From Candidatus Aenigmatarchaeota archaeon (GTDB taxonomy: Archaea > Aenigmatarchaeota > Aenigmatarchaeia > QMZP01 > JAFGSV01): a stretch of DNA of 64,000 nucleotides. The translations under genes were made by a program, and so were the position numbers. Shown here piece by piece: positions 45,618 to 61,427 of this stretch; position 1 is the stretch's first letter; the number at the start of each line of letters is the position of its first letter. The notes beneath the pieces were generated by a model, which saw only the letters and a program-made list of their open reading frames with translations, was not told where the DNA came from and ran no database searches. Where the stretch lies: assembly GCA_016934325.1 (NCBI GenBank), contig JAFGSV010000012.1, positions 44,373 to 108,372 of the forward strand, given 5' to 3'.

Positions 45618-45988
45618 ACAATAAAGGTGCCGGGAAATCGAAAGCTCGGATAGCAAGGGAATTCCCCGAGAATTTCGTCATCGGCGGGTTGCTTGTGATG
45701 CTTGCGATATGGGTCGCCAGGGCCTCGACCCCGGCCATAGGCGGGATAATAGCGGCCGTGCCGATCAGGTATGCGGTCACATGGTCGATCGCGGCGGTAC
45801 GCCGGGGTAAGGAATTCGCGGAGGACATGGCGAGGGGCTCGGTCATCGGGATGCCCGGCAACATCACGTTCTCGTTAGCCTTGTTTGCCATGCTTTTGGT
45901 TTCAATCGATTTCCTGACGGCGTTCATCGTGTCCATACTGGCAGGAATAGCGGTGCTTGCCCTGTGCAAGTTTACCTTTCCAGAATGA
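45593..45988 (+). CDS. Small membrane protein (paired family, copy B)
   Basis: 'AIGGIIAAVPIRYAVTWSIAA' paralogous to copy A. Overlaps copy A by 25 nt. Confidence 0.45.
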   Translation: MHRSGDAMNNKGAGKSKARIAREFPENFVIGGLLVMLAIWVARASTPAIGGIIAAVPIRYAVTWSIAAVRRGKEFAEDMARGSVIGMPGNITFSLALFAMLLVSIDFLTAFIVSILAGIAVLALCKFTFPE

Positions 45989-48900
45989 AGTACTTCGGGT
46001 GCTCTACCTTCTTGGGTATCTTCTCTATCAGCATCTGGAACCTCTCCCCTATCCCAAGGATCTTGAGGTCCTTGGTGAGCCGCATGGCCCTCTCCAGCTT
46101 GTAGCCCTTGTCGGCATACACCTCGAACAGGATGTCGCCTTTCTTGACCCTGTCACCCATCTTCTTGTGCAGCAGTATCCCGGCACCCTTGTCCTTGGGG
46201 GTACCCGAGGCCCTCGCTATCTCGACGAGCGCACTGTTGTTGATCCATCCGACGGTGCCGTTCACCGTGGACTTGACATCCACGTTCTTCGACCCGATAG
46301 GCAGGTCGTCGGGCTTTATGCCCGGATCACCTCCCTGGGCTGCTATGATCTCCTTGAGCTTCTTGTAGGCCTTGCCGCTCCTGAGGAGCCTCATAGCCTC
46401 TTTGTTCCCCCCTCTGCCTAGCTTGAAATCCAAGAGAATCCCCGCCAGGTGCGTCACCTTGTCCACAAGGTCGCCAGGGCCCTTGCCGTTCATAAGCGTG
46501 CACAGGGCCTCCCTCGCCTCCAGGGCGGGACCGATCGCGAAACCGATCGGCTGCTCGCCGAAGGTCGATGCCCCCACGGTATTTATCTTCAGCATCTTCC
46601 CGAGCTCGATGAACCTCTCGGCAAGGCTCTCGGCCTCCTTCGTCGTCTTCACCTTGGCTTCCTCCCCTGTCGGGATGTCTATGACGAGGTATTTCGCGCC
46701 GACCGCCTTCTTCTTTGACATCACGCTCGGCAGCAGCAACGGGTCAATGGACAATGGATACTCTATCTTGATGAAGAGGTCGTCCGCCGGGGCCAGGTCC
46801 ACGGAGCCTCCCCATACGAGGCACCCGTTCGTCTTGTGGACCACCTTCTTGATCTCATCGAGCTCAAGCTCGACCGGCGCCAGGCATTCGAACCTGTCAG
46901 CGGTGCCTGCGGGGGACGTTATCGCCCTGCTCGATGTCTTGGGTATGGTAAGGCCCGCGGCTGCTATTATGGGGACGAGCACCATGGAAGTCTCATCCCC
47001 CGGGACCCCTCCTATACTGTTGTGTAAGAAAATCGGTCCATAACCACCAACGAAATTTTCATAACCTTCAACACAGAAATCGTAAACATATTCATGCCCT
47101 GCACAACTCACTTCTTCGATTGACTTGACAGCAAGAAATCCTAAATTTGAATATGCAATCCTTTTCGTTTCAGCCTCGCCCCCGTTTGGTACAAGGTCTA
47201 GAAGAGACCTAGCTTTATTAAAAGTAATATAACGGTTTCTTCTGAAACCCCTTCTGGTTTCATGGTCCCAAAAATCACAGCTACCGAACCTGTTTAGATT
47301 TGCCTGTTCTATGGGTATGAAATTGAGGAATGCTGCTGTATTCTTACCTCCATTCCCGAGCACGGGATTCGCTTGGGTATAAATGAAATTTACAGGTGCA
47401 GTTTCAGATTTATATCCGGATGGGAATTCCCTGAATCCGGCCTCCCTGTAGGAGGTGCTGTAAGAAATGCCGCACACGGATAAAAGGTACTGCAAACCTA
47501 TGGATAACTCCTTGCTTGCCGTATCTGATATGATTTCATAGTTCCTCCTGAAATAACCATCACCCTTGAAATAGCTCCTAAGGAACTCCAGTTGCAGTTT
47601 TCTTGGCAAGTTGAAAATCAGTTCTGGCACTTCCTTGAACCTCGCTCCGTGTTTGAGTTTGAAAACATTATCAAAGATTTTTGCCAAAAGCTTGTTATAT
47701 ACGTTCAAATGCACGGCTGTTTTATGGGGATGGGTTATAGTTGTTTCCAGACTGAAAACATTTCTCACACAATCTTTTATGTCTTTGATAATTTCCGTCT
47801 CCTTTGTCCCAAGAGAGAAATGGACGCCATTTTCATTGGTGTAGCCCTCAGCAATCCAGTAACCAAGGATTTTGACTAATGATTCCTTAACAGGAACAAA
47901 AATCGGAATCCCGTTTCCGTGTTTCAATTTGAGCTTGGCATTCGCTGGCAGACGGACCTTTTTCTTTCTGTAAACATTGAACGGGATTAAATCGTACATT
48001 CTTTCTCTAAATGGTATTATCCCTCGGTAACTTTCCGATACCCCTTTGATGAAAACATCTTCGGTCAATTCCGGCGGCAGTTTAAGCAACCCTCGAACTA
48101 AGTCTATTTTCTCAATATAGGCTCCCGATTCAGGTACTTCTCTCGGCACTACGACGAAATCACCAACCTTAAGATTCTTGGATGGTATCGATTTTATTTC
48201 ACCGTCTTTAAGCACGAAAAGGGAGTGGCAATGCGTGGTGACAACTTCTCTATTTCCGAGCAAAGTAATTTTATACAATTTTTTTGGTGCCGGATGCCTG
48301 TAAATCCCTGTAATGGGCTTGAAGGATATCTTGAGATTCCCGTCGAAACTCAAGGCCTCATAATCTGCATCTTCTGTTTCTATGTATTCGGCACGATTAC
48401 CAACCTTTTCTATTTTCTTGCAATTCATCTTAAAGAAATTATCAATAAACTCCCCTATTTTCACAAGCCTCCTTCTTCCCCCTTCCTTAATCATCACGGG
48501 AGTATCCCAGGTAACGGAATGCTTGTCATATACCACCTTCCTGCCGAGGTCCAGCTTCTTCCCCGTAATGGCCATCGCCCTGGAGAGGGCGGCTGCCTCC
48601 TTGGTTGTCATGCCGTGATAGTATAATGCCGTCACAAAGGCCGTCATCTCTATCTCCGACAGCTTCCTGTTTACCGTGTCCTTCACGATCTTGTAGATAT
48701 CGGAGTCCTTCAGCGCATTCCCGCTAAGCTTCTCCCTTATGTGTATCAGGGATTCGGGGGGTTCGGACGGGGAAATCTCAATCCTGTCCCCGCTGCCAGC
48801 TTCCATGTGCTCAGCTATCTCGCTATGGAGGCCTATCTGCCCGGGCTTGATGAAGCGGGTTGCGACATTGACGATGGCGGTCCCCTTCTTGCCGCGCAAG

Positions 48901-49013
48901 GAAAGCTCGACCCTGTCAAGGGGCCTGACATCGATATCCTCCGCATCCTCCTTGTTCAGGATTATGATGGGCTTATCCGCTTCCAGTCCAAGTAGCTTTG
49001 CCTTGAGCAGCAT
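45972..49013 (-). CDS. deoA: AMP phosphorylase (thymidine-phosphorylase family) interrupted by a 500-aa intein
   Basis: The N-terminal AMPpase-specific domain and C-terminal 'SIGGVPGDETSMVLVPIIAAAGLTIPKTSSRAITSPAGTADRFE...LVWGG' align to archaeal AMPpase. The extein junction 'YDKH|...|SIGGVPG' restores the 'DKHSIGGVPG' phosphate loop. Confidence 0.85.
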   Translation of the reverse strand: MLLKAKLLGLEADKPIIILNKEDAEDIDVRPLDRVELSLRGKKGTAIVNVATRFIKPGQIGLHSEIAEHMEAGSGDRIEISPSEPPESLIHIREKLSGNALKDSDIYKIVKDTVNRKLSEIEMTAFVTALYYHGMTTKEAAALSRAMAITGKKLDLGRKVVYDKHSVTWDTPVMIKEGGRRRLVKIGEFIDNFFKMNCKKIEKVGNRAEYIETEDADYEALSFDGNLKISFKPITGIYRHPAPKKLYKITLLGNREVVTTHCHSLFVLKDGEIKSIPSKNLKVGDFVVVPREVPESGAYIEKIDLVRGLLKLPPELTEDVFIKGVSESYRGIIPFRERMYDLIPFNVYRKKKVRLPANAKLKLKHGNGIPIFVPVKESLVKILGYWIAEGYTNENGVHFSLGTKETEIIKDIKDCVRNVFSLETTITHPHKTAVHLNVYNKLLAKIFDNVFKLKHGARFKEVPELIFNLPRKLQLEFLRSYFKGDGYFRRNYEIISDTASKELSIGLQYLLSVCGISYSTSYREAGFREFPSGYKSETAPVNFIYTQANPVLGNGGKNTAAFLNFIPIEQANLNRFGSCDFWDHETRRGFRRNRYITFNKARSLLDLVPNGGEAETKRIAYSNLGFLAVKSIEEVSCAGHEYVYDFCVEGYENFVGGYGPIFLHNSIGGVPGDETSMVLVPIIAAAGLTIPKTSSRAITSPAGTADRFECLAPVELELDEIKKVVHKTNGCLVWGGSVDLAPADDLFIKIEYPLSIDPLLLPSVMSKKKAVGAKYLVIDIPTGEEAKVKTTKEAESLAERFIELGKMLKINTVGASTFGEQPIGFAIGPALEAREALCTLMNGKGPGDLVDKVTHLAGILLDFKLGRGGNKEAMRLLRSGKAYKKLKEIIAAQGGDPGIKPDDLPIGSKNVDVKSTVNGTVGWINNSALVEIARASGTPKDKGAGILLHKKMGDRVKKGDILFEVYADKGYKLERAMRLTKDLKILGIGERFQMLIEKIPKKVEHPKYFILER
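47019..48518 (-). mobile_element. Intein with LAGLIDADG homing-endonuclease domain (in AMP phosphorylase)
   Basis: Starts 'SVTWDTPVMIKEGG' (block A with Ser1). LAGLIDADG-like 'KILGYWIAEGYT' and 'LRSYFKGDGYF'. Ends 'VGGYGPIFLHN' with +1 Ser. The segment is visibly AT-richer than the exteins. Confidence 0.75.
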
Positions 49014-49019
49014 AGAAAA

Positions 49020-50288
49020 TCATCGCCATTTCTTGAGTGCCAGCCTCAGCTCATCATTATCTTTGGCATGTTCCTTTAAATCAATTCCCAGCATGGCGGC
49101 ATCCACTGCCTGCCTGATCGCCATGGCACCGGACCGTGTCCCTTTCGGATGGCCGTGGCACCCGCCGCCGAACTGGCAGATGATGTCAGGGCCGAGTATC
49201 TCGACCAGCTTCGGTACGTGGCCGGGATGAAGCCCCCCTGAGCAGACGGCGAACACGGGCTTGATGCCCCTCCAGTCGTCGGACAGGACATGCCCGTGCT
49301 CCTTAATCACCCTGTGCTCGATCTCTTCGCCGATGTCGATTACGTCATGCTTGCTCCCATGCATCTTCCCGACCACCGTGCCTATGTGTATCTGGTCGAC
49401 GCCGATCAGCCTCGAGCACTCGGCCACCACGAGCATGGATATCCCGTGCATGGGGTTCCTGGTGAACGCCGCATGGCCTGCCCGGTGAGCGTGCAGGACG
49501 AGCTTGAGGTCCTCGTTCTCGTCCCTGAGCGTCTGCAGGCCCGACCAGCCTGCCGTCACGATGTCGACCATGATGTACTCCCCGCCGTGGTCCCTGACGA
49601 ACCTGGCCCTCTTCAGCATCTCCCTGCACTCCGCCGTTACGTTGGGCATGTACATCTTCCTGTCCCCCGTCTCACGCTCGGCCTTGTCCCGCAGCTTCAA
49701 TGTCTCAACGACCCTCTCCTCGAACCTGTTGAAGCCCATGCTCGACAGGTTCTCGTCATCCTTGACGATGTCAAGCCCCCCGCTCCATGCGTCGTAGGCC
49801 ACCATCGCGTGCTCGTGCTCGTCGAGGCCGACCTTAGGCTTGACGATCGTCCCTGTCAGCGGCCTCTTGCTGACGCGGAGCATGCGCCTGACCCCCGGGA
49901 TGCCGTGGAGCGGGCCCTTGAACGATTCCATCAGCTTCCGTGGCCAGTGGATAGATTCGAGCCTGAGGTTCCCGACCATCTTCATGCCGAAGATGTTGCC
50001 GGCTATCGAGCTTAGTATCTGGGGCATGTTGCCGGGCTCGAACAAATCTGCCGGATAGGCAATCTTCACCCACCTGCCCTTTATCTCGAACACCTTGGCG
50101 GCGATCCGCATTATGCTCGGCTTCATCGTCGCCACGTCGGTCCAGGTCCCGACGCTCGATTCGCTGGCCACGTGCTCTGCGGCCTGCCTGGCGGTGTAAC
50201 CATTGGCGGGCTCTAACGAGAATTCGCACACCATGTCCCTCTTCGACGGCTTGTAGCCGAGCTGCACGTAACCCATAAGTGTCACCAT
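49020..50288 (-). CDS. rbcL: Type III RuBisCO
   Basis: 'GGLDIVKDDE', 'KPKVGL', 422 aa. Adjacent to AMPpase, as in the archaeal AMP pathway. Confidence 0.9.
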   Translation of the reverse strand: MVTLMGYVQLGYKPSKRDMVCEFSLEPANGYTARQAAEHVASESSVGTWTDVATMKPSIMRIAAKVFEIKGRWVKIAYPADLFEPGNMPQILSSIAGNIFGMKMVGNLRLESIHWPRKLMESFKGPLHGIPGVRRMLRVSKRPLTGTIVKPKVGLDEHEHAMVAYDAWSGGLDIVKDDENLSSMGFNRFEERVVETLKLRDKAERETGDRKMYMPNVTAECREMLKRARFVRDHGGEYIMVDIVTAGWSGLQTLRDENEDLKLVLHAHRAGHAAFTRNPMHGISMLVVAECSRLIGVDQIHIGTVVGKMHGSKHDVIDIGEEIEHRVIKEHGHVLSDDWRGIKPVFAVCSGGLHPGHVPKLVEILGPDIICQFGGGCHGHPKGTRSGAMAIRQAVDAAMLGIDLKEHAKDNDELRLALKKWR

Positions 50289-50337: not shown

Positions 50338-50808
50338 CTAATCAGAGCTTGTCGCATATCTGTTTCCGGTTATGTGATAGAGCCTTTTCCCGGAACCTTT
50401 GGTTTTCGAATGCACGACCTTCCCTATGAAAACGGTATGGTCTCCCGTCTCAACGCTGTCGACAACCTCGCACTCCAGGAAGCCGATTGCCTGCTTTATC
50501 CTGGGGCAGTCGATCTTACCGCACTCCTCCTTGCCGAACCCGCTATGCTCGAATTTGTCGGCGTTCCTGCCTGAAACGGAACCGCAATGCTCCATTCCCT
50601 TCTTCTGTTCAGCCGGCATGAAATTCACGCAGAAATTGCCGGAATCCCTGATCATGTCATGGGAGAACCTGGTCTTGCCGATCGAGATAGCGTACAGGCG
50701 CGGATCGAACGACGTGGGCATGTGCCACGCGAGGGTTATGATGTTGTCCTTCCCCCTGTGCCTGCACGTGACGAGGATCACCTGCCTGGGTCCGTCAATC
50801 TCGGGCAT
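50338..50808 (-). CDS. Flavin reductase-like FMN-binding protein
   Basis: Split-barrel pattern 'VILVTCRHRGKDNIITLAW...SIG...GNFCVNF...DKF'. Confidence 0.55.
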   Translation of the reverse strand: MPEIDGPRQVILVTCRHRGKDNIITLAWHMPTSFDPRLYAISIGKTRFSHDMIRDSGNFCVNFMPAEQKKGMEHCGSVSGRNADKFEHSGFGKEECGKIDCPRIKQAIGFLECEVVDSVETGDHTVFIGKVVHSKTKGSGKRLYHITGNRYATSSD

Positions 50809-50842: not shown

Positions 50843-51670
50843 CTATCCGAGCCAGGGATAAGCCTTCCTGACCTCCTGGATGAAGACCTCCGGAGGGAAA
50901 ACACCGAGCTCCGATATGATGGCGGTAATCAGATCGGGATCGACCCTCTCGAAGGCCAGGTTCATAATCTTGACCCCGGCGGGGGCGCCCGGCCAGACCT
51001 CCTTGGGGTCCCTTATCTCAATCGGCTCCTTGTTGCCGAATACGGTGGTTGCGTCGTACTTCCAGCTGTCCGTGCAGCAGTAGCAGCCGGTGTCGTATTT
51101 GTTCGCGATCTCGGCCATCATCTCCGTGCCTATCTTGTTCACGACCTTGCACTCGCTCGTAATGGCATCCGCCCCGAACAGGAACAGATCGCTATCCTTC
51201 AACGCTATCCTGGCCCCCGAATCAACGAACATAGTCACGGGTATTCCCAGCCTCTTCAGCTCCTTCGCAGTCTTCCTTCCCTGCAGCAGGGGCCTGGTCT
51301 CGGTGCAGTAGACCTCGTACCTCTTACCGTCGAGCTTCGCCCTCCTCAGGACATCCATGACGTTCGATGAGTGGCAGTGCGTGAAAACGGTCATGCCGTC
51401 ATCGATCTTCTTCGCGCCGTACTCTCCTATCTTCTTGTCAGAGTCGGTGAAGTGCTTCAGGGCAACGGGGCCGAGCTTCTTCGGGTCGGGCTTCACGAAA
51501 CCGATCGCGTTCCTCATGCAAGGCTCGGTCGGCCTCAGGGAAATCAGCTTCTTTATCGAGCGGGCGTCGTTTCTCAACATCAGGGCCCTGACGGCGGCTT
51601 TAGCGACGTTCTCCGCCCCTTGGATCTCTACCTTCTTGATCTTCCTGCATATCTCGTCAAACTTGTCCAT
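50843..51670 (-). CDS. Ribose-1,5-bisphosphate isomerase (eIF2B-like e2b2 family)
   Basis: eIF2B alpha/beta/delta fold ('VFTHCHSSNVMDVL', 'GADAITSECKVVNKIGT'). In the same strand block as rbcL and AMPpase. Confidence 0.7.
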   Translation of the reverse strand: MDKFDEICRKIKKVEIQGAENVAKAAVRALMLRNDARSIKKLISLRPTEPCMRNAIGFVKPDPKKLGPVALKHFTDSDKKIGEYGAKKIDDGMTVFTHCHSSNVMDVLRRAKLDGKRYEVYCTETRPLLQGRKTAKELKRLGIPVTMFVDSGARIALKDSDLFLFGADAITSECKVVNKIGTEMMAEIANKYDTGCYCCTDSWKYDATTVFGNKEPIEIRDPKEVWPGAPAGVKIMNLAFERVDPDLITAIISELGVFPPEVFIQEVRKAYPWLG

Positions 51671-51749: not shown

Positions 51750-51869
51750 GCGGAGATGGCCGAATGGCTCAGGCGATCGGCTGCAGGCGGTGTGGCAAGG
51801 CTTCTGCTCGTTCCGAAGCCGATGACCGATAGACACCGGTTCATGGGGGTTCAATTCCCCCTCTCCGCT
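51750..51869 (+). tRNA. Intron-containing tRNA (120 nt); isotype unresolved (Cys-GCA if spliced at canonical 37/38, or a class II Ser-like tRNA)
   Basis: Acceptor GCGGAGA pairs with TCTCCGC. D-arm GCC/GGC with a GG loop. T-arm GGGGG-TTCAATT-CCCCC. A 7-bp helix ATCGGCT/AGCCGAT encloses a ~31-34-nt insert. A U-tract follows the 3' end. Confidence 0.6.
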
Positions 51870-58042: not shown

Positions 58043-61000
58043 TCATTCGACGGCCTTGAGGCCCGTCACGAACCCCAGCAGCTTCTTGACCTTGCTCTTC
58101 GCCACGTATGGGGAAATGTCCTTGCTCACCCATTCCAGCAAGGCCTCCTTGTCCTTGTAGTAGAGCGATATGAATTCCGCCACGTTGTCGTACTTCAGGA
58201 CGTCGTGCCTGAGCATCCATTCCAGCACCTTCTTCCTGTTCTCGAACTCCTCCTTTATGAGCTCGTAGTTCATCCCCTTCTCGAAGGATATCTTCCTCAG
58301 CAGGTCGGATTCGGTCAGTGCGCTGTCGAAGCCGTCCCTGGACGGGACCCAGACGAAGCTCTTCAGAGTCTTGGCCTTTCCCGAATCTATGTCGACCGAC
58401 TGGACCTCGACTATCTCCTTGATCCTCCTGGCCGATTCGCCCCTCTCCTTGGCCCTTATCATCACGAGAAGCAGGTCCAGCGACTCGACGAGGCTGGGGG
58501 AGAGCTCGATCGGCGGCGTCTCGAGCCTCTTTATGACATCCTCCACGGAGCCCGCGTGCATTGTGCCTATGCTGGCGTGGCCGCTGGCCATGCCCTGGAA
58601 CATGACGTACGCCTCCTTGCCCCTCACCTCGCCCACGATGACGTAGTCCGGGTTCTGCCTGAAGGACTCCTTCAGCAGCTCGAACAGGGTGACCTCCCCG
58701 TACCGCTTCCCGCTCGCCTCGGGCACCCCGAAGCCGATCCTCGAGACGGCAGGGATCCAGTTCTCGTGGGGCAGGTTCAGCTCCCTCGTATTGTGCAGTA
58801 TTACATTTGAGCACAAGAAATTCTCAAACCCGGGAACGGATATATCGTAAACCATCCTCTTTCTTTTTGGCAGTTTCTTGACCTTTGCCACTTTATCCCA
58901 TAATATGTCCGAGTGGGAAATATCATTGAAAATAGAGCCTTTCTCGGAGATTTCCCGAAGATAATCCCGTCCAATCCTCTGCATCCCTTGCAGATAGGGC
59001 CAACAGATTTTATGGTGATCGTTTACCTTTCTCAGTTGGCATTCTGTCAAAGGAATGACGTCAGAACAGGTGTGTTTCGGTTTTTTCAAGCATATCTTAT
59101 CAAGCTTGACGCTTTTCCTGCCTTGCAGGAAACCCACGTCATTCTTGAATTTCTTTACATTGTCATAAGATGATACGGATAGAGAAACGCAATGATCCTT
59201 TCTATTGAAATCCCCCATCCTCGAGATTATCCCCAGCCTCAGAAACACCGTTTGTATGTCTTTGAGCAGTTCCAAACTCTGGGAGGAGCAGGACACCTCA
59301 TAGTTCTTAACGGTGCCGTCAGCGCTGAAATAGCCTTTGAGGACCTGTTTGAGTTGCTTGTTGCTGAGGTTGAAGATCGTGTCGGGGATTCCTTTCGTCC
59401 TGGAATACCCGTCAAGCTTGAGTACGTATTTCATGAACTTATAGAATATCGTGCTGTTGACAGACATGGAAACGCCATCGTTCATGCATGTTATGTTGAG
59501 ATCCAGTTTTCTTGCTAACCGCTCAACGATTCCCCTGCACTCACGGTCGCTGTTGGATATTATCACCCTGTTTGAGTTGTGGTTATCATAACTCCCATCA
59601 CCGAGCCACAAGCCGACGAAATTCAAAAATGCATCATCGAGATGAAAGATCACAGGCAGAGACTTCATGCCTCTGCTCTTAATCCTGAGCTGTCGCAGCT
59701 CGGACTTGGTAAAGGCGATGTCATCTTTCCGCAATCTGGATATTCTCATGATACCCCTTTTCTTGCACCATTGATACGTCGATTTCGACATCTTAAGATC
59801 TCTATAGCCCCTGTTCGCAAGCAACCTTCTCACCGGTTTCCCGGCAAGGAAATCATCCCTGTAGACATCCATGAAGTCCAGGAGGTTGATGATAGCTTTC
59901 CTTTCACCGTCAACGGGCAGAATTCTTGGCACGGCAATGAATTTACCTTCGATATCTGCCGGTTTGGCCTCTTCCATACCATTCTCGCCCCAGGAAAACA
60001 GCGAGTGATCGGAGGTCACCCTCACGGTTCTACCGGTGGATGTGAGGATTTCATAGACATCCTTATCGACCGAATGCTTGAAAATCTTTGAGGGTTCGGC
60101 GAACTTGATCTTGTAGTTGCCGTCCAATGTCAGAATCGGTTTTTTCGTGTCCTTATCAATATAATCCTTTATGCTCATCCTCTTTATGCCATTATCCTTC
60201 ACCAGGATTTCCGCCTCCCCCGTTACGCTGTCCTCGATGCTGACAATCCTGGCCTCGGGCTGTATGAACAGCGTGATGGCGTTCAGCATGCTGGTCTTGC
60301 CCGTGCTGACACCTCCGCATATGAGCAGTGATATGCCCGACTGGACGACAAGCCACAGGTAGGCCATGACATCCGTCGATGCCGTCCCCATCTTGATGAG
60401 CTCAATGGGGGAGAAGGGGAACTTCCTGAACTTCCTGATGGAGAACGTCGGGCCCTTGGTCGTGACGTCCTTGGCGAGCGACGCCTGCACCCTGCTTCCG
60501 TCTGGCAGGCTGCCGTCCAGCAGGGGCCTCGCGTACGATATGTACCTGCCGCAGCGCTCGGACAGCTTGACGACGAAGTTGTTCAGGTTGCCCATGTCCT
60601 TGTAAACCACGTTGCTGGCAAGGGAGCCGAATTTCGTGTGCACGACGTATATGGGGCTGTTTGCGCCGTCGCACCCCACGTCCTCTATGAACGGGTCGTG
60701 CATCATGGGCTCTATCTCGTTGAGCCCTATGAAGTCCCTGTAGATGTAATAGAGTATCTTCACGTACTGCTTCGACGAGAGGCGCACCCCCTCCTCTTCG
60801 AGGACAGCCAGCACCTTCTTCTCGAGGTACTCCATCGCCGTCCCCTGCTCCTCGAGGCTCGTCAGCTCAACGTCTATAAGCTCCAGGATGTCGCTCTTCA
60901 CCTTTTCCAGGATCTCCTGGTCGCTCTTGGTCAGCCTGGGCTCCAGGACGTTGTACCGCAGCACCTTCCTCTCCGGGTCCCACTTTATGTTCGCGAACAC

Positions 61001-61147
61001 GAGCGGCTCGAGAAGCGGGTATCTTATGTCGAGGTCCCTGACGTTCTTGGCGCTTGGCAGCGTGATGAGGAAAGATGGCTCCTTGATCTCTATCTTGGGG
61101 TACTGGCTGGATTTCTTCTTCTTGAACAAGGTTCTCAACGATTTCAT
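58043..61147 (-). CDS. FlaI/PilB/TadA-like secretion ATPase interrupted by a 480-aa intein
   Basis: Walker A 'GGVSTGKTSML'. The Asp box is split 'RIVSIED|...|TRELNLPHENWIP'. His box 'GTMHAGS'. Extein total ~554 aa, typical of FlaI. Confidence 0.85.
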   Translation of the reverse strand: MKSLRTLFKKKKSSQYPKIEIKEPSFLITLPSAKNVRDLDIRYPLLEPLVFANIKWDPERKVLRYNVLEPRLTKSDQEILEKVKSDILELIDVELTSLEEQGTAMEYLEKKVLAVLEEEGVRLSSKQYVKILYYIYRDFIGLNEIEPMMHDPFIEDVGCDGANSPIYVVHTKFGSLASNVVYKDMGNLNNFVVKLSERCGRYISYARPLLDGSLPDGSRVQASLAKDVTTKGPTFSIRKFRKFPFSPIELIKMGTASTDVMAYLWLVVQSGISLLICGGVSTGKTSMLNAITLFIQPEARIVSIEDSVTGEAEILVKDNGIKRMSIKDYIDKDTKKPILTLDGNYKIKFAEPSKIFKHSVDKDVYEILTSTGRTVRVTSDHSLFSWGENGMEEAKPADIEGKFIAVPRILPVDGERKAIINLLDFMDVYRDDFLAGKPVRRLLANRGYRDLKMSKSTYQWCKKRGIMRISRLRKDDIAFTKSELRQLRIKSRGMKSLPVIFHLDDAFLNFVGLWLGDGSYDNHNSNRVIISNSDRECRGIVERLARKLDLNITCMNDGVSMSVNSTIFYKFMKYVLKLDGYSRTKGIPDTIFNLSNKQLKQVLKGYFSADGTVKNYEVSCSSQSLELLKDIQTVFLRLGIISRMGDFNRKDHCVSLSVSSYDNVKKFKNDVGFLQGRKSVKLDKICLKKPKHTCSDVIPLTECQLRKVNDHHKICWPYLQGMQRIGRDYLREISEKGSIFNDISHSDILWDKVAKVKKLPKRKRMVYDISVPGFENFLCSNVILHNTRELNLPHENWIPAVSRIGFGVPEASGKRYGEVTLFELLKESFRQNPDYVIVGEVRGKEAYVMFQGMASGHASIGTMHAGSVEDVIKRLETPPIELSPSLVESLDLLLVMIRAKERGESARRIKEIVEVQSVDIDSGKAKTLKSFVWVPSRDGFDSALTESDLLRKISFEKGMNYELIKEEFENRKKVLEWMLRHDVLKYDNVAEFISLYYKDKEALLEWVSKDISPYVAKSKVKKLLGFVTGLKAVE
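58790..60229 (-). mobile_element. Intein with LAGLIDADG homing-endonuclease domain (in pilus ATPase)
   Basis: Starts 'SVTGEAEILVKDNG' (Ser1). 'FVGLWLGDGSYD' and 'LKGYFSADGTV' LAGLIDADG blocks. Ends 'NVILHN' with +1 Thr. AT-rich relative to the exteins. Confidence 0.75.
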
Positions 61148-61151
61148 GAGT

Positions 61152-61427
61152 TTACCTTTTCTTCCTTCTTACGATGTGCCTGTGCCTCGCGCAGGCTGGG
61201 CACGCGTACATCTTGCTGCTCATCAGCGAGATCGGCCGCCTGTTCCCCGGCCTGAGCTCTTCCTTCAGGAGGGGATCTGTGATCCTGAATCCCCTCACCA
61301 CCGAGAAGGTCTTGTACTTGGGGACCTTCCTGCCGCAGAACGCGCAGGTGACAAGGGTTTCCTTGCCCCTGCCCGGGCCGTGCTTCCATCCTCTGGTGTA
61401 TCCTTTATTAGGTCTCATATGATCCAC
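61152..61427 (-). CDS. rps26e: Ribosomal protein S26e
   Basis: 'VTCAFCGRKVPKYK...YACPACARHRHIVRRKK' matches the S26e two-Cys-pair pattern. Lies 4 nt upstream of the ATPase start. Confidence 0.6.
   Translation of the reverse strand: MDHMRPNKGYTRGWKHGPGRGKETLVTCAFCGRKVPKYKTFSVVRGFRITDPLLKEELRPGNRRPISLMSSKMYACPACARHRHIVRRKKR

What the first reader, a model, noticed from the sequence alone, without database searches (positions are those of the whole stretch)
47019..48518. Intein splitting the phosphate-binding 'DKHS-IGGVPG' loop of AMP phosphorylase
The host gene matches archaeal AMP phosphorylase end to end, except for a 500-aa insertion exactly between His and Ser of the conserved KHSxGG motif: ...VVYDKH|SVTWDTPVMIKEGG...GPIFLHN|SIGGVPGDETS.... 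The insert carries block A with Ser1, LAGLIDADG motifs (KILGYWIAEGYT, LRSYFKGDGYF) and terminal HN with +1 Ser, and it is strongly AT-rich. It is a mobile element sitting in the active site of a central-metabolism enzyme.
Basis: partly seen in the sequence, partly recalled or inferred. Interest (0 to 1): 0.65.

Follow-up and report, generated by a model that had tools for sequence, protein, structure and literature searches.

The report
Homing intein splitting AMP phosphorylase active site
A 500-residue self-splicing, probably mobile protein element (an intein with a homing endonuclease) interrupts the active-site loop of the AMP phosphorylase gene of a DPANN (Aenigmarchaeota) archaeon; it is an ordinary intein by mechanism, but I found no published description of an intein in this host enzyme or at this site.

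Summary
ORF 45972..49013 (-) encodes a 1013-aa precursor, and residues 166-665 (window 48518..47019) form a canonical class-1 intein. It has Ser1, block B TxxH, two LAGLIDADG motifs with their acidic residues, block F Asp, His-Asn, and Ser+1. Removing it in silico leaves a 513-aa protein that passes the AMP phosphorylase equivalog model end to end and aligns without a gap across the junction to the T. kodakarensis enzyme. The split falls between the residues equivalent to E. coli thymidine phosphorylase His85 and Ser86. The intein model (pLDDT 89) matches PI-PkoII over its full length. The 120 closest extein relatives (57-90% identity, same gene order where checked) all lack the intein, and its GC3 is 43% against 79% for the exteins, so it is most likely a recent horizontal arrival. 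At least 18 other DPANN assemblies carry a homologous intein at the same site, with all catalytic residues conserved. A related intein occupies a second site 36 residues downstream in two other AMP phosphorylases. I found no literature describing an intein in this enzyme. Verdict: real, a new member (new host and site) of a well-known kind, of modest interest.

The parts
45972..49013 (-). AMP phosphorylase precursor gene (1013 aa plus stop), containing the intein
   Evidence: Single open frame. 100% identical to an NCBI record from a Candidatus Aenigmarchaeota MAG, annotated 'hypothetical protein'. It is the only AMPpase copy in the window.
48519..49013 (-). N-extein, aa 1-165, ending ...VVYDKH (Lys164, His165)
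   Evidence: Aligns to 4GA5 and to EcTP K84/H85. GC3 is high, like the rest of the host gene.
47019..48518 (-). Intein, 500 aa, Ser1 to Asn500
   Evidence: Pfam PF14890 and PF14528, NCBIfam intein N- and C-terminal models. AF2 model pLDDT 88.9. Foldseek top hit PI-PkoII 2CW7, E 4.5e-36, TM 0.74.
48480..48518 (-). Splicing block A (SVTWDTPVMIKEG), Ser1 nucleophile
   Evidence: Position 1 is Ser or Cys in all 19 same-site alleles.
48213..48257 (-). Splicing block B (GNREVVTTHCHSLFV), with Thr95 and His98
   Evidence: T95 and H98 are invariant in 19 alleles.
47838..47873 (-). LAGLIDADG motif 1 (KILGYWIAEGYT), catalytic Glu224
   Evidence: E224-G225 are invariant in 19 alleles. Aligns to the PI-PkoII endonuclease domain.
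47550..47582 (-). LAGLIDADG motif 2 (LRSYFKGDGYF), catalytic Asp320
   Evidence: D320 is invariant in 19 alleles. Pfam LAGLIDADG_3 best stretch covers intein aa 309-358.
47019..47090 (-). Splicing blocks F and G (YVYDFCVEGYENFVGGYGPIFLHN), with Asp480, His499, Asn500
   Evidence: D480, H499 and N500 are invariant in 19 alleles. TIGR01443 intein_Cterm covers intein aa 477-500.
45972..47018 (-). C-extein, aa 666-1013 plus stop, starting with Ser+1 (SIGGVPGD...)
   Evidence: Ser666 corresponds to EcTP Ser86. Aligns without a gap to 4GA5.
49020..50288 (-). Operon context: type III RuBisCO, immediately upstream
   Evidence: TIGR03326, 592 bits, cutoff 497. Same neighbour in intein-free and in several intein-bearing relatives.
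50843..51670 (-). Operon context: ribose-1,5-bisphosphate isomerase-like (e2B2 family) gene
   Evidence: TIGR00511, 191.9 bits, which is below the 314 cutoff. Syntenic in relatives.

Best explanation
The 1.5-kb insert is a genuine class-1 intein carrying a two-motif LAGLIDADG homing endonuclease, and it sits in the single AMP phosphorylase gene of a pentose-bisphosphate (AMPpase-RuBisCO-R15P isomerase) operon of an Aenigmarchaeota MAG. The inferred mechanism follows standard class-1 splicing chemistry. The gene is translated as a 1013-aa precursor. That precursor cannot be active, because 500 residues separate the catalytic His165 from Ser166 of the K-H-S-x-G-G active-site loop. Ser1 makes an N-O acyl shift, the ester is passed to Ser+1 (Ser666), Asn500 cyclises to release the intein, and an O-N shift restores the native ...DKH-SIGG... 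peptide. This yields a 513-aa AMP phosphorylase and a free 500-aa endonuclease. At the DNA level, the endonuclease is expected to cut intein-free alleles across the junction sequence (about GACAAGCAT|TCGATCGGGGGCGTCCCG in the nearest empty alleles), so that repair copies the intein in (homing). The copy in this window most likely arrived recently by horizontal transfer from a lower-GC DPANN donor. What is shown: the anatomy, the family memberships, the exact site, the sporadic distribution, the composition contrast, and the conservation of catalytic residues. What is inferred: splicing competence, endonuclease activity, target sequence, and the direction and timing of transfer.
For: Intein identity: Pfam and NCBIfam models above cutoff; sequence match to PI-PkoII 2CW7 at E 2.4e-30; AF2 model with pLDDT 88.9 and pTM 0.89, with a full-length Foldseek match to PI-PkoII, the Tli and Pho VMA inteins and PI-PfuI. 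Host identity and exact excision: TIGR03327 at 604 bits against a 535 cutoff; gapless alignment across the junction to T. kodakarensis AMPpase 4GA5 and to 90%-identical intein-free proteins. Active-site location: K164/H165/S166 correspond to EcTP K84/H85/S86; human H116F and H116K are inactive (PMC2719695). Functional constraint: Ser/Cys1, T95, H98, E224, D320, D480, H499 and N500 are invariant in 19 same-site alleles that are only 38-58% identical to the window's intein. Within the family, dN/dS is 0.11-0.15 over the LAGLIDADG domain. Mobility: all 120 best extein relatives (57-90% identity) lack the intein. The three checked have the same gene order. Intein GC3 is 43% against 79% for the exteins. 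Inteins of this family are 29-41% GC whatever the host GC. For P0006 vs P0007 the intein dS is 0.64 against 1.26 for the extein, and intein identity is 84% against 68%, so the intein was transferred after the hosts diverged. Only about 6 full-length intein-bearing clusters appear among the AMPpase clusters at 50% identity.
Against: No experiment supports this: splicing and DNA cleavage are inferred only. The nearest sampled intein is only 58% identical, so no donor is identified. No clear co-conversion tract is visible in the flanking extein codons. The low GC content of the inteins could partly reflect an intrinsic compositional bias rather than recent arrival, because it is seen in every higher-GC host. 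The sequence comes from a metagenome-assembled genome, and I could not check read support across the junctions.
Confidence: 0.88

Rival explanations
1. The intein still splices but its endonuclease is dead. On this view it is an old, vertically inherited and fixed passenger in this lineage rather than a recent, active homing element.
For: No co-conversion tract in the flanks. Nearest intein relative is only 58% identical, and intein and extein divergence from P0002-P0004 are similar. Many inteins persist after their endonuclease decays (general knowledge).
Against: Both catalytic acidic residues and the surrounding LAGLIDADG motifs are intact and invariant across 19 alleles. Relatives with 90% extein identity and the same synteny lack the intein, which requires either a recent gain or several precise losses. 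GC3 has not moved towards the host value (43% against 79%). Within the family, dN/dS over the endonuclease domain is about 0.15.
Confidence: 0.2
2. The intein is degenerate and does not splice, so the gene is in effect a pseudogene or makes an inactive fusion protein.
For: NCBI annotates the protein only as 'hypothetical protein'. There are no expression data.
Against: The frame is intact over 1013 codons. All splicing residues are present. It is the only AMPpase copy in a conserved operon with RuBisCO. Extein GC3 and sequence are conserved like those of functional relatives.
Confidence: 0.04
3. Assembly or binning artefact: a low-GC fragment from another organism was joined into the contig.
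For: Abrupt GC drop of about 16 points exactly over the insert. The source is a MAG.
Against: The boundaries fall to the codon on canonical intein junctions, and the frame continues into a colinear C-extein. At least 18 independent assemblies from different samples show the same architecture. No adapter sequence is present.
Confidence: 0.02
4. The intein has been co-opted as a post-translational switch (conditional protein splicing) that gates AMP phosphorylase activity, for example in response to phosphate, substrate or stress.
For: The insertion lies in a substrate- and phosphate-contacting loop. A related intein sits in the next conserved loop of the same enzyme in other genomes. Conditional splicing has been proposed for other inteins (PMC4760082).
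Against: Nothing in the sequence points to a sensor. The Ser1/Ser+1 pair cannot form a redox disulfide trap. The sporadic distribution, with close relatives managing without the intein, fits a selfish element better than a regulator.
Confidence: 0.05

Closest known systems
PI-PkoII (Thermococcus kodakarensis DNA polymerase intein 2, PDB 2CW7)
   Same: Full-size intein with a Hint splicing domain, an inserted two-motif LAGLIDADG endonuclease and extra linker domains. It is the best sequence hit (E 2.4e-30) and the best fold hit (TM 0.74 over the whole model).
   Different: Only 23% identical. The host is a family B DNA polymerase, not a metabolic enzyme. PI-PkoII is 537 aa against 500 aa here, and it aligns with a longer segment between the splicing and endonuclease parts.
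TFIIB inteins of Methanocaldococcus/Methanotorris (P0014, P0015; mini-intein structures 5O9I, 5O9J)
   Same: Closest non-AMPpase relatives by sequence: 27-29% identity over the full intein and 35-38% identity over the splicing domain. They start with Ser1 (SVDYNEP...).
   Different: Different host (a transcription factor), and +1 residue Thr rather than Ser.
Inteins in P-loops of ATPases (MCM-a, DnaB-b, RFC, VMA), as surveyed by Novikova et al. 2016 (PMC4760082)
   Same: Same logic of insertion: a highly conserved, ligand-binding active-site loop, so that the host is inactive until splicing and the DNA target is conserved between species.
   Different: Here the loop is the K-H-S-x-G-G loop of a type-3 glycosyltransferase-fold nucleoside/nucleotide phosphorylase, not a Walker A motif. 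The survey's main text does not mention any phosphorylase. The host does fall in COG category F (nucleotide metabolism), the second most intein-rich category in that survey.
AMP/NMP phosphorylase TK0352 of T. kodakarensis (PDB 4GA4-4GA6)
   Same: The spliced extein aligns over residues 3-505 to chain residues 3-508, including the AMPpase-specific N-terminal domain (E 3.8e-139), and sits in an operon with type III RuBisCO.
   Different: TK0352 has no intein. In T. kodakarensis the pathway genes carry well-separated locus tags (TK0352, TK2290), whereas here they are adjacent.

Membership tests
Class-1 intein | N-terminal nucleophile (Cys/Ser) at intein position 1 | tested here: met
   Ser1. Ser or Cys in all 19 same-site alleles.
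Class-1 intein | Block B Thr-x-x-His | tested here: met
   T95-H-C-H98, invariant across 19 alleles.
Class-1 intein | C-terminal His-Asn followed by a Cys/Ser/Thr +1 residue, and block F Asp | tested here: met
   D480, H499-N500 | Ser+1. TIGR01443 above cutoff.
Class-1 intein | Hint fold | tested here: met
   PF14890 at 66.9 bits against a 35.8 cutoff. The splicing domain superposes on mini-inteins at rmsd 1.4-2.1 A in Foldseek.
Class-1 intein | In-frame insertion whose removal restores a host protein colinear with intein-free homologues | tested here: met
   Gapless alignment across the junction to 4GA5 and to 90%-identical intein-free proteins.
Class-1 intein | Demonstrated protein splicing | not testable with these tools
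   Requires expression and mass spectrometry or SDS-PAGE.
LAGLIDADG homing endonuclease (single-chain, two-motif) | Two LAGLIDADG motifs, each ending in a catalytic acidic residue | tested here: met
   LGYWIAEG (E224) and YFKGDG (D320), invariant in 19 alleles. PF14528 at 47.2 bits against a 22.5 cutoff.
LAGLIDADG homing endonuclease (single-chain, two-motif) | Alpha-beta-beta-alpha-beta-beta-alpha pseudo-dimeric fold | tested here: met
   The model matches the endonuclease domains of PI-PkoII, PI-PfuI, I-DmoI and I-Tsp061I.
LAGLIDADG homing endonuclease (single-chain, two-motif) | Site-specific cleavage of the intein-free allele | not testable with these tools
   Empty-site sequences were recovered from L089-L091, but cleavage needs a biochemical assay.
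AMP phosphorylase (TIGR03327 equivalog; TK0352 type) | Score above the curated equivalog cutoff over the full length | tested here: met
   604.1 bits against 535, model positions 2-499 of 500, on the spliced sequence.
AMP phosphorylase (TIGR03327 equivalog; TK0352 type) | AMPpase-specific N-terminal domain (about 85 aa) in front of the thymidine phosphorylase-like core | tested here: met
   Aligns from residue 3 of full-length 4GA5. The N-terminally truncated chain 4GA4 aligns only from query residue 86.
AMP phosphorylase (TIGR03327 equivalog; TK0352 type) | Genomic association with type III RuBisCO and R15P isomerase | tested here: met
   RuBisCO III is adjacent (592 bits, above cutoff). An e2B2-family gene lies two genes upstream but scores below the R15Pi equivalog cutoff (191.9 against 314.1).
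AMP phosphorylase (TIGR03327 equivalog; TK0352 type) | Phosphorolysis of AMP/CMP/UMP to ribose-1,5-bisphosphate | not testable with these tools
   Enzyme assay needed.
Class-3 intein, or bacterial intein-like (BIL) / Hedgehog Hint domain (considered, not adopted) | Class 3: no position-1 nucleophile and an internal block-F Cys (WCT motif). BIL/Hog: no canonical C-terminal Asn plus +1 nucleophile | tested here: not met
   Ser1 is present, canonical HN|S is present, and a LAGLIDADG domain is inserted. The element is therefore a standard class-1 intein.

The most novel reading that the evidence does not exclude
AMP phosphorylase of DPANN archaea may host an actively circulating intein family that has colonised two different conserved active-site loops of the same enzyme: site a (K-H|S-x-G-G) and site b (S-R-A-I-T-S-A|S-G-T-A-D). 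It also shows Ser-to-Cys switches of both splicing nucleophiles, which in some lineages would leave a Cys in place of the conserved Ser in the mature enzyme. That would make it a natural system for studying ectopic intein site-jumping and intein-driven change of active-site residues. A further possibility is that splicing in a substrate-binding loop is ligand-conditional and gates pentose-bisphosphate flux.
Probability: 0.12. Interest if true: 0.6.

Novelty: new member of a known kind. Interest (0 to 1): 0.33.

Why it matters
The finding adds a host protein and insertion site (a nucleotide phosphorylase of the archaeal pentose-bisphosphate/RuBisCO pathway) that I could not find described in the searchable literature. 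It fits the rule that inteins target ligand-binding loops that are conserved at the DNA level. It is also one more example outside the replication, recombination and repair proteins that make up about two-thirds of archaeal intein hosts. In practical terms, annotation pipelines miss it: NCBI calls this protein 'hypothetical', which would make the AMP pathway look incomplete in this MAG's metabolic reconstruction. The sporadic, compositionally foreign intein is also a marker of recent gene flow among DPANN lineages. The Ser1/Ser+1 variants use no cysteine as a splicing nucleophile, a feature sometimes sought for protein-engineering tools. None of this changes current understanding of how inteins work.

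Tried and rejected
1. A plus-strand ORF at 48739 starts with 'MCIRDS', which is how the Nextera adapter translates, so I suspected adapter contamination or a chimeric join inside the N-extein. The DNA is not the adapter, with 0 matches at up to 3 mismatches. Rejected.

2. Co-conversion tract. AT-ending extein codons next to the junction (GTA TAT ... CAT | AGT ATA GGA) suggested donor sequence carried in with the intein. Comparison with three empty alleles shows local identity of 77-82% against a gene mean of about 85%, and two of the empty alleles share some of those codons. Inconclusive, so not used as evidence.

3. My own recollection that the T. kodakarensis gene is TK0353 was wrong.

4. 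The supplementary tables of Novikova et al. 2016, which could list rare intein hosts, are not held in the library. I therefore cannot exclude that an AMP or thymidine phosphorylase intein is listed there or in InBase.

5. Literature searches for intein plus AMP phosphorylase, thymidine phosphorylase or deoA returned nothing relevant.

6. The first tree run timed out and I redid it with a faster distance method. Support for a single origin of site-a inteins is only 54%, so I make no strong claim about the number of invasions.

7. The GTDB scan did not return the window's own genome. It is presumably not a species representative, so no organism-level context beyond the NCBI record name was obtained.
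Full report
**1. Observation**

ORF listing shows one uninterrupted reading frame on the minus strand, 45972..49013, of 1013 aa. The segment between them is exactly 500 aa, encoded by window 48518..47019, which is the interval given in the finding. The segment has 41.1% GC against 57.5% for the rest of the gene. Third-codon-position GC is 43% against 79%, and the drop is visible in the sliding profile.

**2. What the insert is**

Profile searches:
- Pfam finds Intein_splicing (E 2.3e-18, 66.9 bits against a 35.8 cutoff) spanning intein residues 12-500.
- Pfam also finds LAGLIDADG_3 (E 2.7e-12) inside that span.
- NCBIfam finds the intein N-terminal (3.3e-13) and C-terminal (5.1e-06) splicing regions, both above cutoff.
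- NCBIfam also gives partial matches to many intein-containing archaeal proteins, including RNA polymerase A'', PolII, Tes, VMA, IF-2, RNR and RFC.

All canonical class-1 elements are present:
- Ser1
- block B T95-x-x-H98
- LAGLIDADG motifs LGYWIAEG (E224) and YFKGDG (D320)
- block F D480
- H499-N500
- Ser+1

The closest solved relative by sequence is PI-PkoII (2CW7, E 2.4e-30), followed by the TFIIB and KlbA mini-inteins. An AlphaFold2 model built on eight same-site inteins is confident (pLDDT 88.9, pTM 0.89). Foldseek matches it over its full length to PI-PkoII (E 4.5e-36, TM 0.74), the Tli and Pho VMA inteins and PI-PfuI. Its endonuclease part also matches I-DmoI and I-Tsp061I. The insert is therefore a standard full-size intein with an embedded single-chain LAGLIDADG homing endonuclease.

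**3. What the host is, and where it is split**

After in-silico splicing, the 513-aa product scores 604 bits on the NCBIfam equivalog TIGR03327 'AMP phosphorylase' (cutoff 535), covering model positions 2-499 of 500. It also aligns without a gap across the junction to T. kodakarensis AMP phosphorylase (4GA5, E 3.8e-139), including the AMPpase-specific N-terminal domain.

The gene lies 6 nt downstream of a type III RuBisCO gene (592 bits, above cutoff). Two genes downstream of an e2B2-family ribose-1,5-bisphosphate isomerase-like gene is where it sits in the cluster. This is the AMP / pentose-bisphosphate pathway gene cluster described for T. kodakarensis, where AMPpase is TK0352 and RuBisCO is TK2290 (PMC9700705).

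I fetched E. coli deoA and aligned it with the spliced extein. Window K164, H165 and S166 correspond to E. coli thymidine phosphorylase K84, H85 and S86. In human thymidine phosphorylase the equivalent residues are Lys115, His116 and Ser117. The paper lists His116 and Ser117 among the active-site residues. His116 contacts the base, and H116F, H116K and K115E all abolish activity (PMC2719695). That Lys84 and Ser86 ligate phosphate in E. coli TP is my recollection of the crystallographic literature, and I did not verify it here.

The intein therefore separates two adjacent active-site residues, and the unspliced precursor cannot be a functional enzyme. This last step is an inference.

**4. Relatives elsewhere**

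The precursor is 100% identical to an NCBI protein from a 'Candidatus Aenigmarchaeota archaeon' MAG, annotated as 'hypothetical protein'. The same search returned eleven further AMP phosphorylase records carrying Intein_splicing and LAGLIDADG domains: ten of 924-1021 aa and one 593-aa fragment. Some are labelled by JGI 'thymidine phosphorylase/intein/homing endonuclease'. In all of them the insert lies at the same DKH|(S/C)...HN|(S/C) position.

A scan of one genome per GTDB species found seven more, with the exteins ending and resuming at the same residues:
- one labelled Nanoarchaeota
- one Pacearchaeota
- two Micrarchaeota (labelled Micrarchaeales and Micrarchaeia)
- two unclassified archaea
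- one bin labelled Methanosarcinales

Together with the window's own allele, this gives nineteen alleles, and they fall into two types:
- Nine are Ser1/Ser+1 and 494-507 aa long, including the window's copy.
- Ten are Cys1 and 429-447 aa long. Seven of these also have Cys+1.

T95, H98, E224, D320, D480, H499 and N500 are invariant in all nineteen, although identity to the window's intein is only 38-58%.

In a library of 1.84 billion cluster representatives at 50% identity, about six full-length site-a intein-bearing AMPpase clusters appear among the 150 best hits. Most of the remaining hits are intein-free phosphorylases of about 490-520 aa.

**5. Evidence on mobility and timing**

- Searching with the spliced extein, all 120 best hits (57-90% identity, 511-588 aa) lack any intein domain.
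- Three of these were fetched: P0030 and P0031 (90% identical) and P0034 (82%). They show the same gene order as the window, namely R15Pi-like, flavin reductase-like, RuBisCO, AMPpase, DUF3147. Their DNA shows the empty site, GAC AAG CAT|TCG ATC GGG GGC GTC CCG.
- The nearest intein-bearing proteins have exteins only 48-60% identical to the window's. The intein is therefore sporadic within this lineage.
- The intein's GC3 (43%) has not moved towards the host value (79%).
- Across the family, inteins have 29-41% GC whether the host gene has 32% or 57%. This suggests a pool circulating mainly in low-GC DPANN genomes.
- For P0006 and P0007 the inteins are more similar (84%) than the exteins (68%). 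Intein dS is 0.64 against 1.26 for the extein, so the intein moved after the hosts diverged.
- dN/dS over the LAGLIDADG domain is 0.11-0.15 in three pairwise comparisons, which indicates selection for a working endonuclease in the family.

Against a very recent event in the window:
- The closest sampled intein is only 58% identical.
- I could not demonstrate a co-conversion tract.

**6. Mechanism**

Standard class-1 splicing is expected:
1. Ser1 makes an N-O acyl shift.
2. The ester is transferred to Ser+1.
3. Asn500 cyclises and releases the intein.
4. An O-N shift restores the ...DKH-SIGG... peptide.

The free intein is expected to act as a homing endonuclease on intein-free alleles. Its target would straddle the highly conserved DKHSIGGVPG codons.

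Shown here: the anatomy, family membership, site, distribution and constraint. Inferred: splicing, cleavage, the target sequence, and recent horizontal acquisition.

My confidence in each sub-claim:
- genuine intein in AMPpase, about 0.97
- splicing-competent, about 0.9
- horizontally acquired after divergence from the 90% relatives, about 0.75
- endonuclease currently active in this copy, about 0.6

**7. Comparison with what is known, and novelty**

The element meets every sequence and fold criterion for a class-1 intein and for a two-motif LAGLIDADG endonuclease. Its closest characterised relative is PI-PkoII.

Insertion into a ligand-binding loop mirrors the P-loop inteins of MCM, DnaB, RFC and VMA discussed by Novikova et al. 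That survey reports that category F (nucleotide metabolism) is the second most common host class in archaea, at 8.3% (PMC4760082).

What I could not find in the searchable literature is any description of an intein in AMP, NMP or thymidine phosphorylase:
- Searches combining 'intein' with 'AMP phosphorylase', 'thymidine phosphorylase' or 'deoA' returned nothing relevant.
- The word 'phosphorylase' does not occur in the main text of the Novikova survey.
- That paper's supplementary tables are not held in the library.

Automated JGI annotation has recognised the domain combination. I rate this a new member (new host and insertion site) of a well-known kind.

**8. Side findings**

- The profile search uncovered two AMP phosphorylases, P0155 and P0156, that have an intact DKH(S/C)xGG loop. 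They carry a Ser1 intein 34-37% identical to the Ser1-type site-a inteins, inserted 36 residues downstream (...RAITSA|SV(I/T)YDTP...LHN|SGTAD...). The +1 Ser is two residues before the EcTP Thr123 equivalent.
- A neighbour-joining tree groups the site-a inteins together (54% bootstrap) and places the site-b inteins as a separate related lineage.
- The window contains a second LAGLIDADG intein at 60229..58790 (-), in a FlaI/VirB11-type ATPase. That is a host class already known to carry inteins in archaea.

**9. Verdict**

The finding is real, correctly delimited and correctly interpreted. It is an ordinary intein mechanistically. It is notable for its host, its sporadic and compositionally foreign character, and the existence of a small DPANN-wide family at two sites of the same enzyme. 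Interest is modest.

Noticed in passing
window 58790..60229 (-), within the frame 58046..61168 (-): A second LAGLIDADG intein of 480 aa (Ser1, Thr+1...RIVSIED|SVTGEAEILV...NVILHN|TRELNL...) sits in a FlaI/VirB11-type (Pfam T2SSE) secretion ATPase. It is also AT-richer than its host (GC3 60% against 88%) and only about 24% identical to the AMPpase intein. Inteins in archaeal VirB11-type ATPases are already reported (PMC4760082).
   Followed up: partly
P0155 (intein aa 205-718) and P0156 (intein aa 209-709): These two AMP phosphorylases carry a related Ser1 intein (34-37% identical to the Ser1-type site-a inteins) at a second insertion site...RAITSA|S...HN|SGTAD..., 36 residues downstream of site a. 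The +1 Ser is two residues before the EcTP Thr123 equivalent.
   Followed up: partly
L008-L010, L012, L014, L015; P0011, P0012, P0151-P0154: Many Cys1-type alleles also have Cys at +1, so the mature enzyme would read K-H-C-x-G-G instead of the conserved K-H-S-x-G-G. This would be an active-site substitution tied to the intein's nucleophile. I did not check whether intein-free relatives of those lineages have Ser or Cys at that position.
   Followed up: no
P0153: One site-a allele ends ...IGISN|CTGG, with Ser in place of the usual penultimate His of block G.
   Followed up: no
window 51750..51869 (+): Rfam finds a tRNA (45 bits) that spans 120 nt, far longer than the 71-position model, which suggests an intron. 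ARAGORN reported no tRNA anywhere in the 64-kb window.
   Followed up: no
window 50843..51670 (-): The e2B2-family gene of the operon scores only 191.9 bits on the ribose-1,5-bisphosphate isomerase equivalog (cutoff 314.1) and is short at 275 aa. Its assignment as R15P isomerase is therefore by context rather than by model.
   Followed up: no
window 50338..50808 (-); L089, L090, L091: A flavin reductase-like gene (Pfam Flavin_Reduct in the relatives) is conserved between the R15Pi-like gene and RuBisCO in this lineage's operon. Its role there is unexplained.
   Followed up: no
window 48739..49230 (+): A spurious plus-strand ORF starts with MCIRDS, the usual translation of the Nextera adapter. 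The DNA is not the adapter, so this is a coincidence.
   Followed up: yes
P0226 (2097 aa) and P0277 (2140 aa): These T2SSE-type ATPases appear to carry three inteins each, judging from several N- and C-terminal intein junctions in the hmmsearch envelopes.
   Followed up: no
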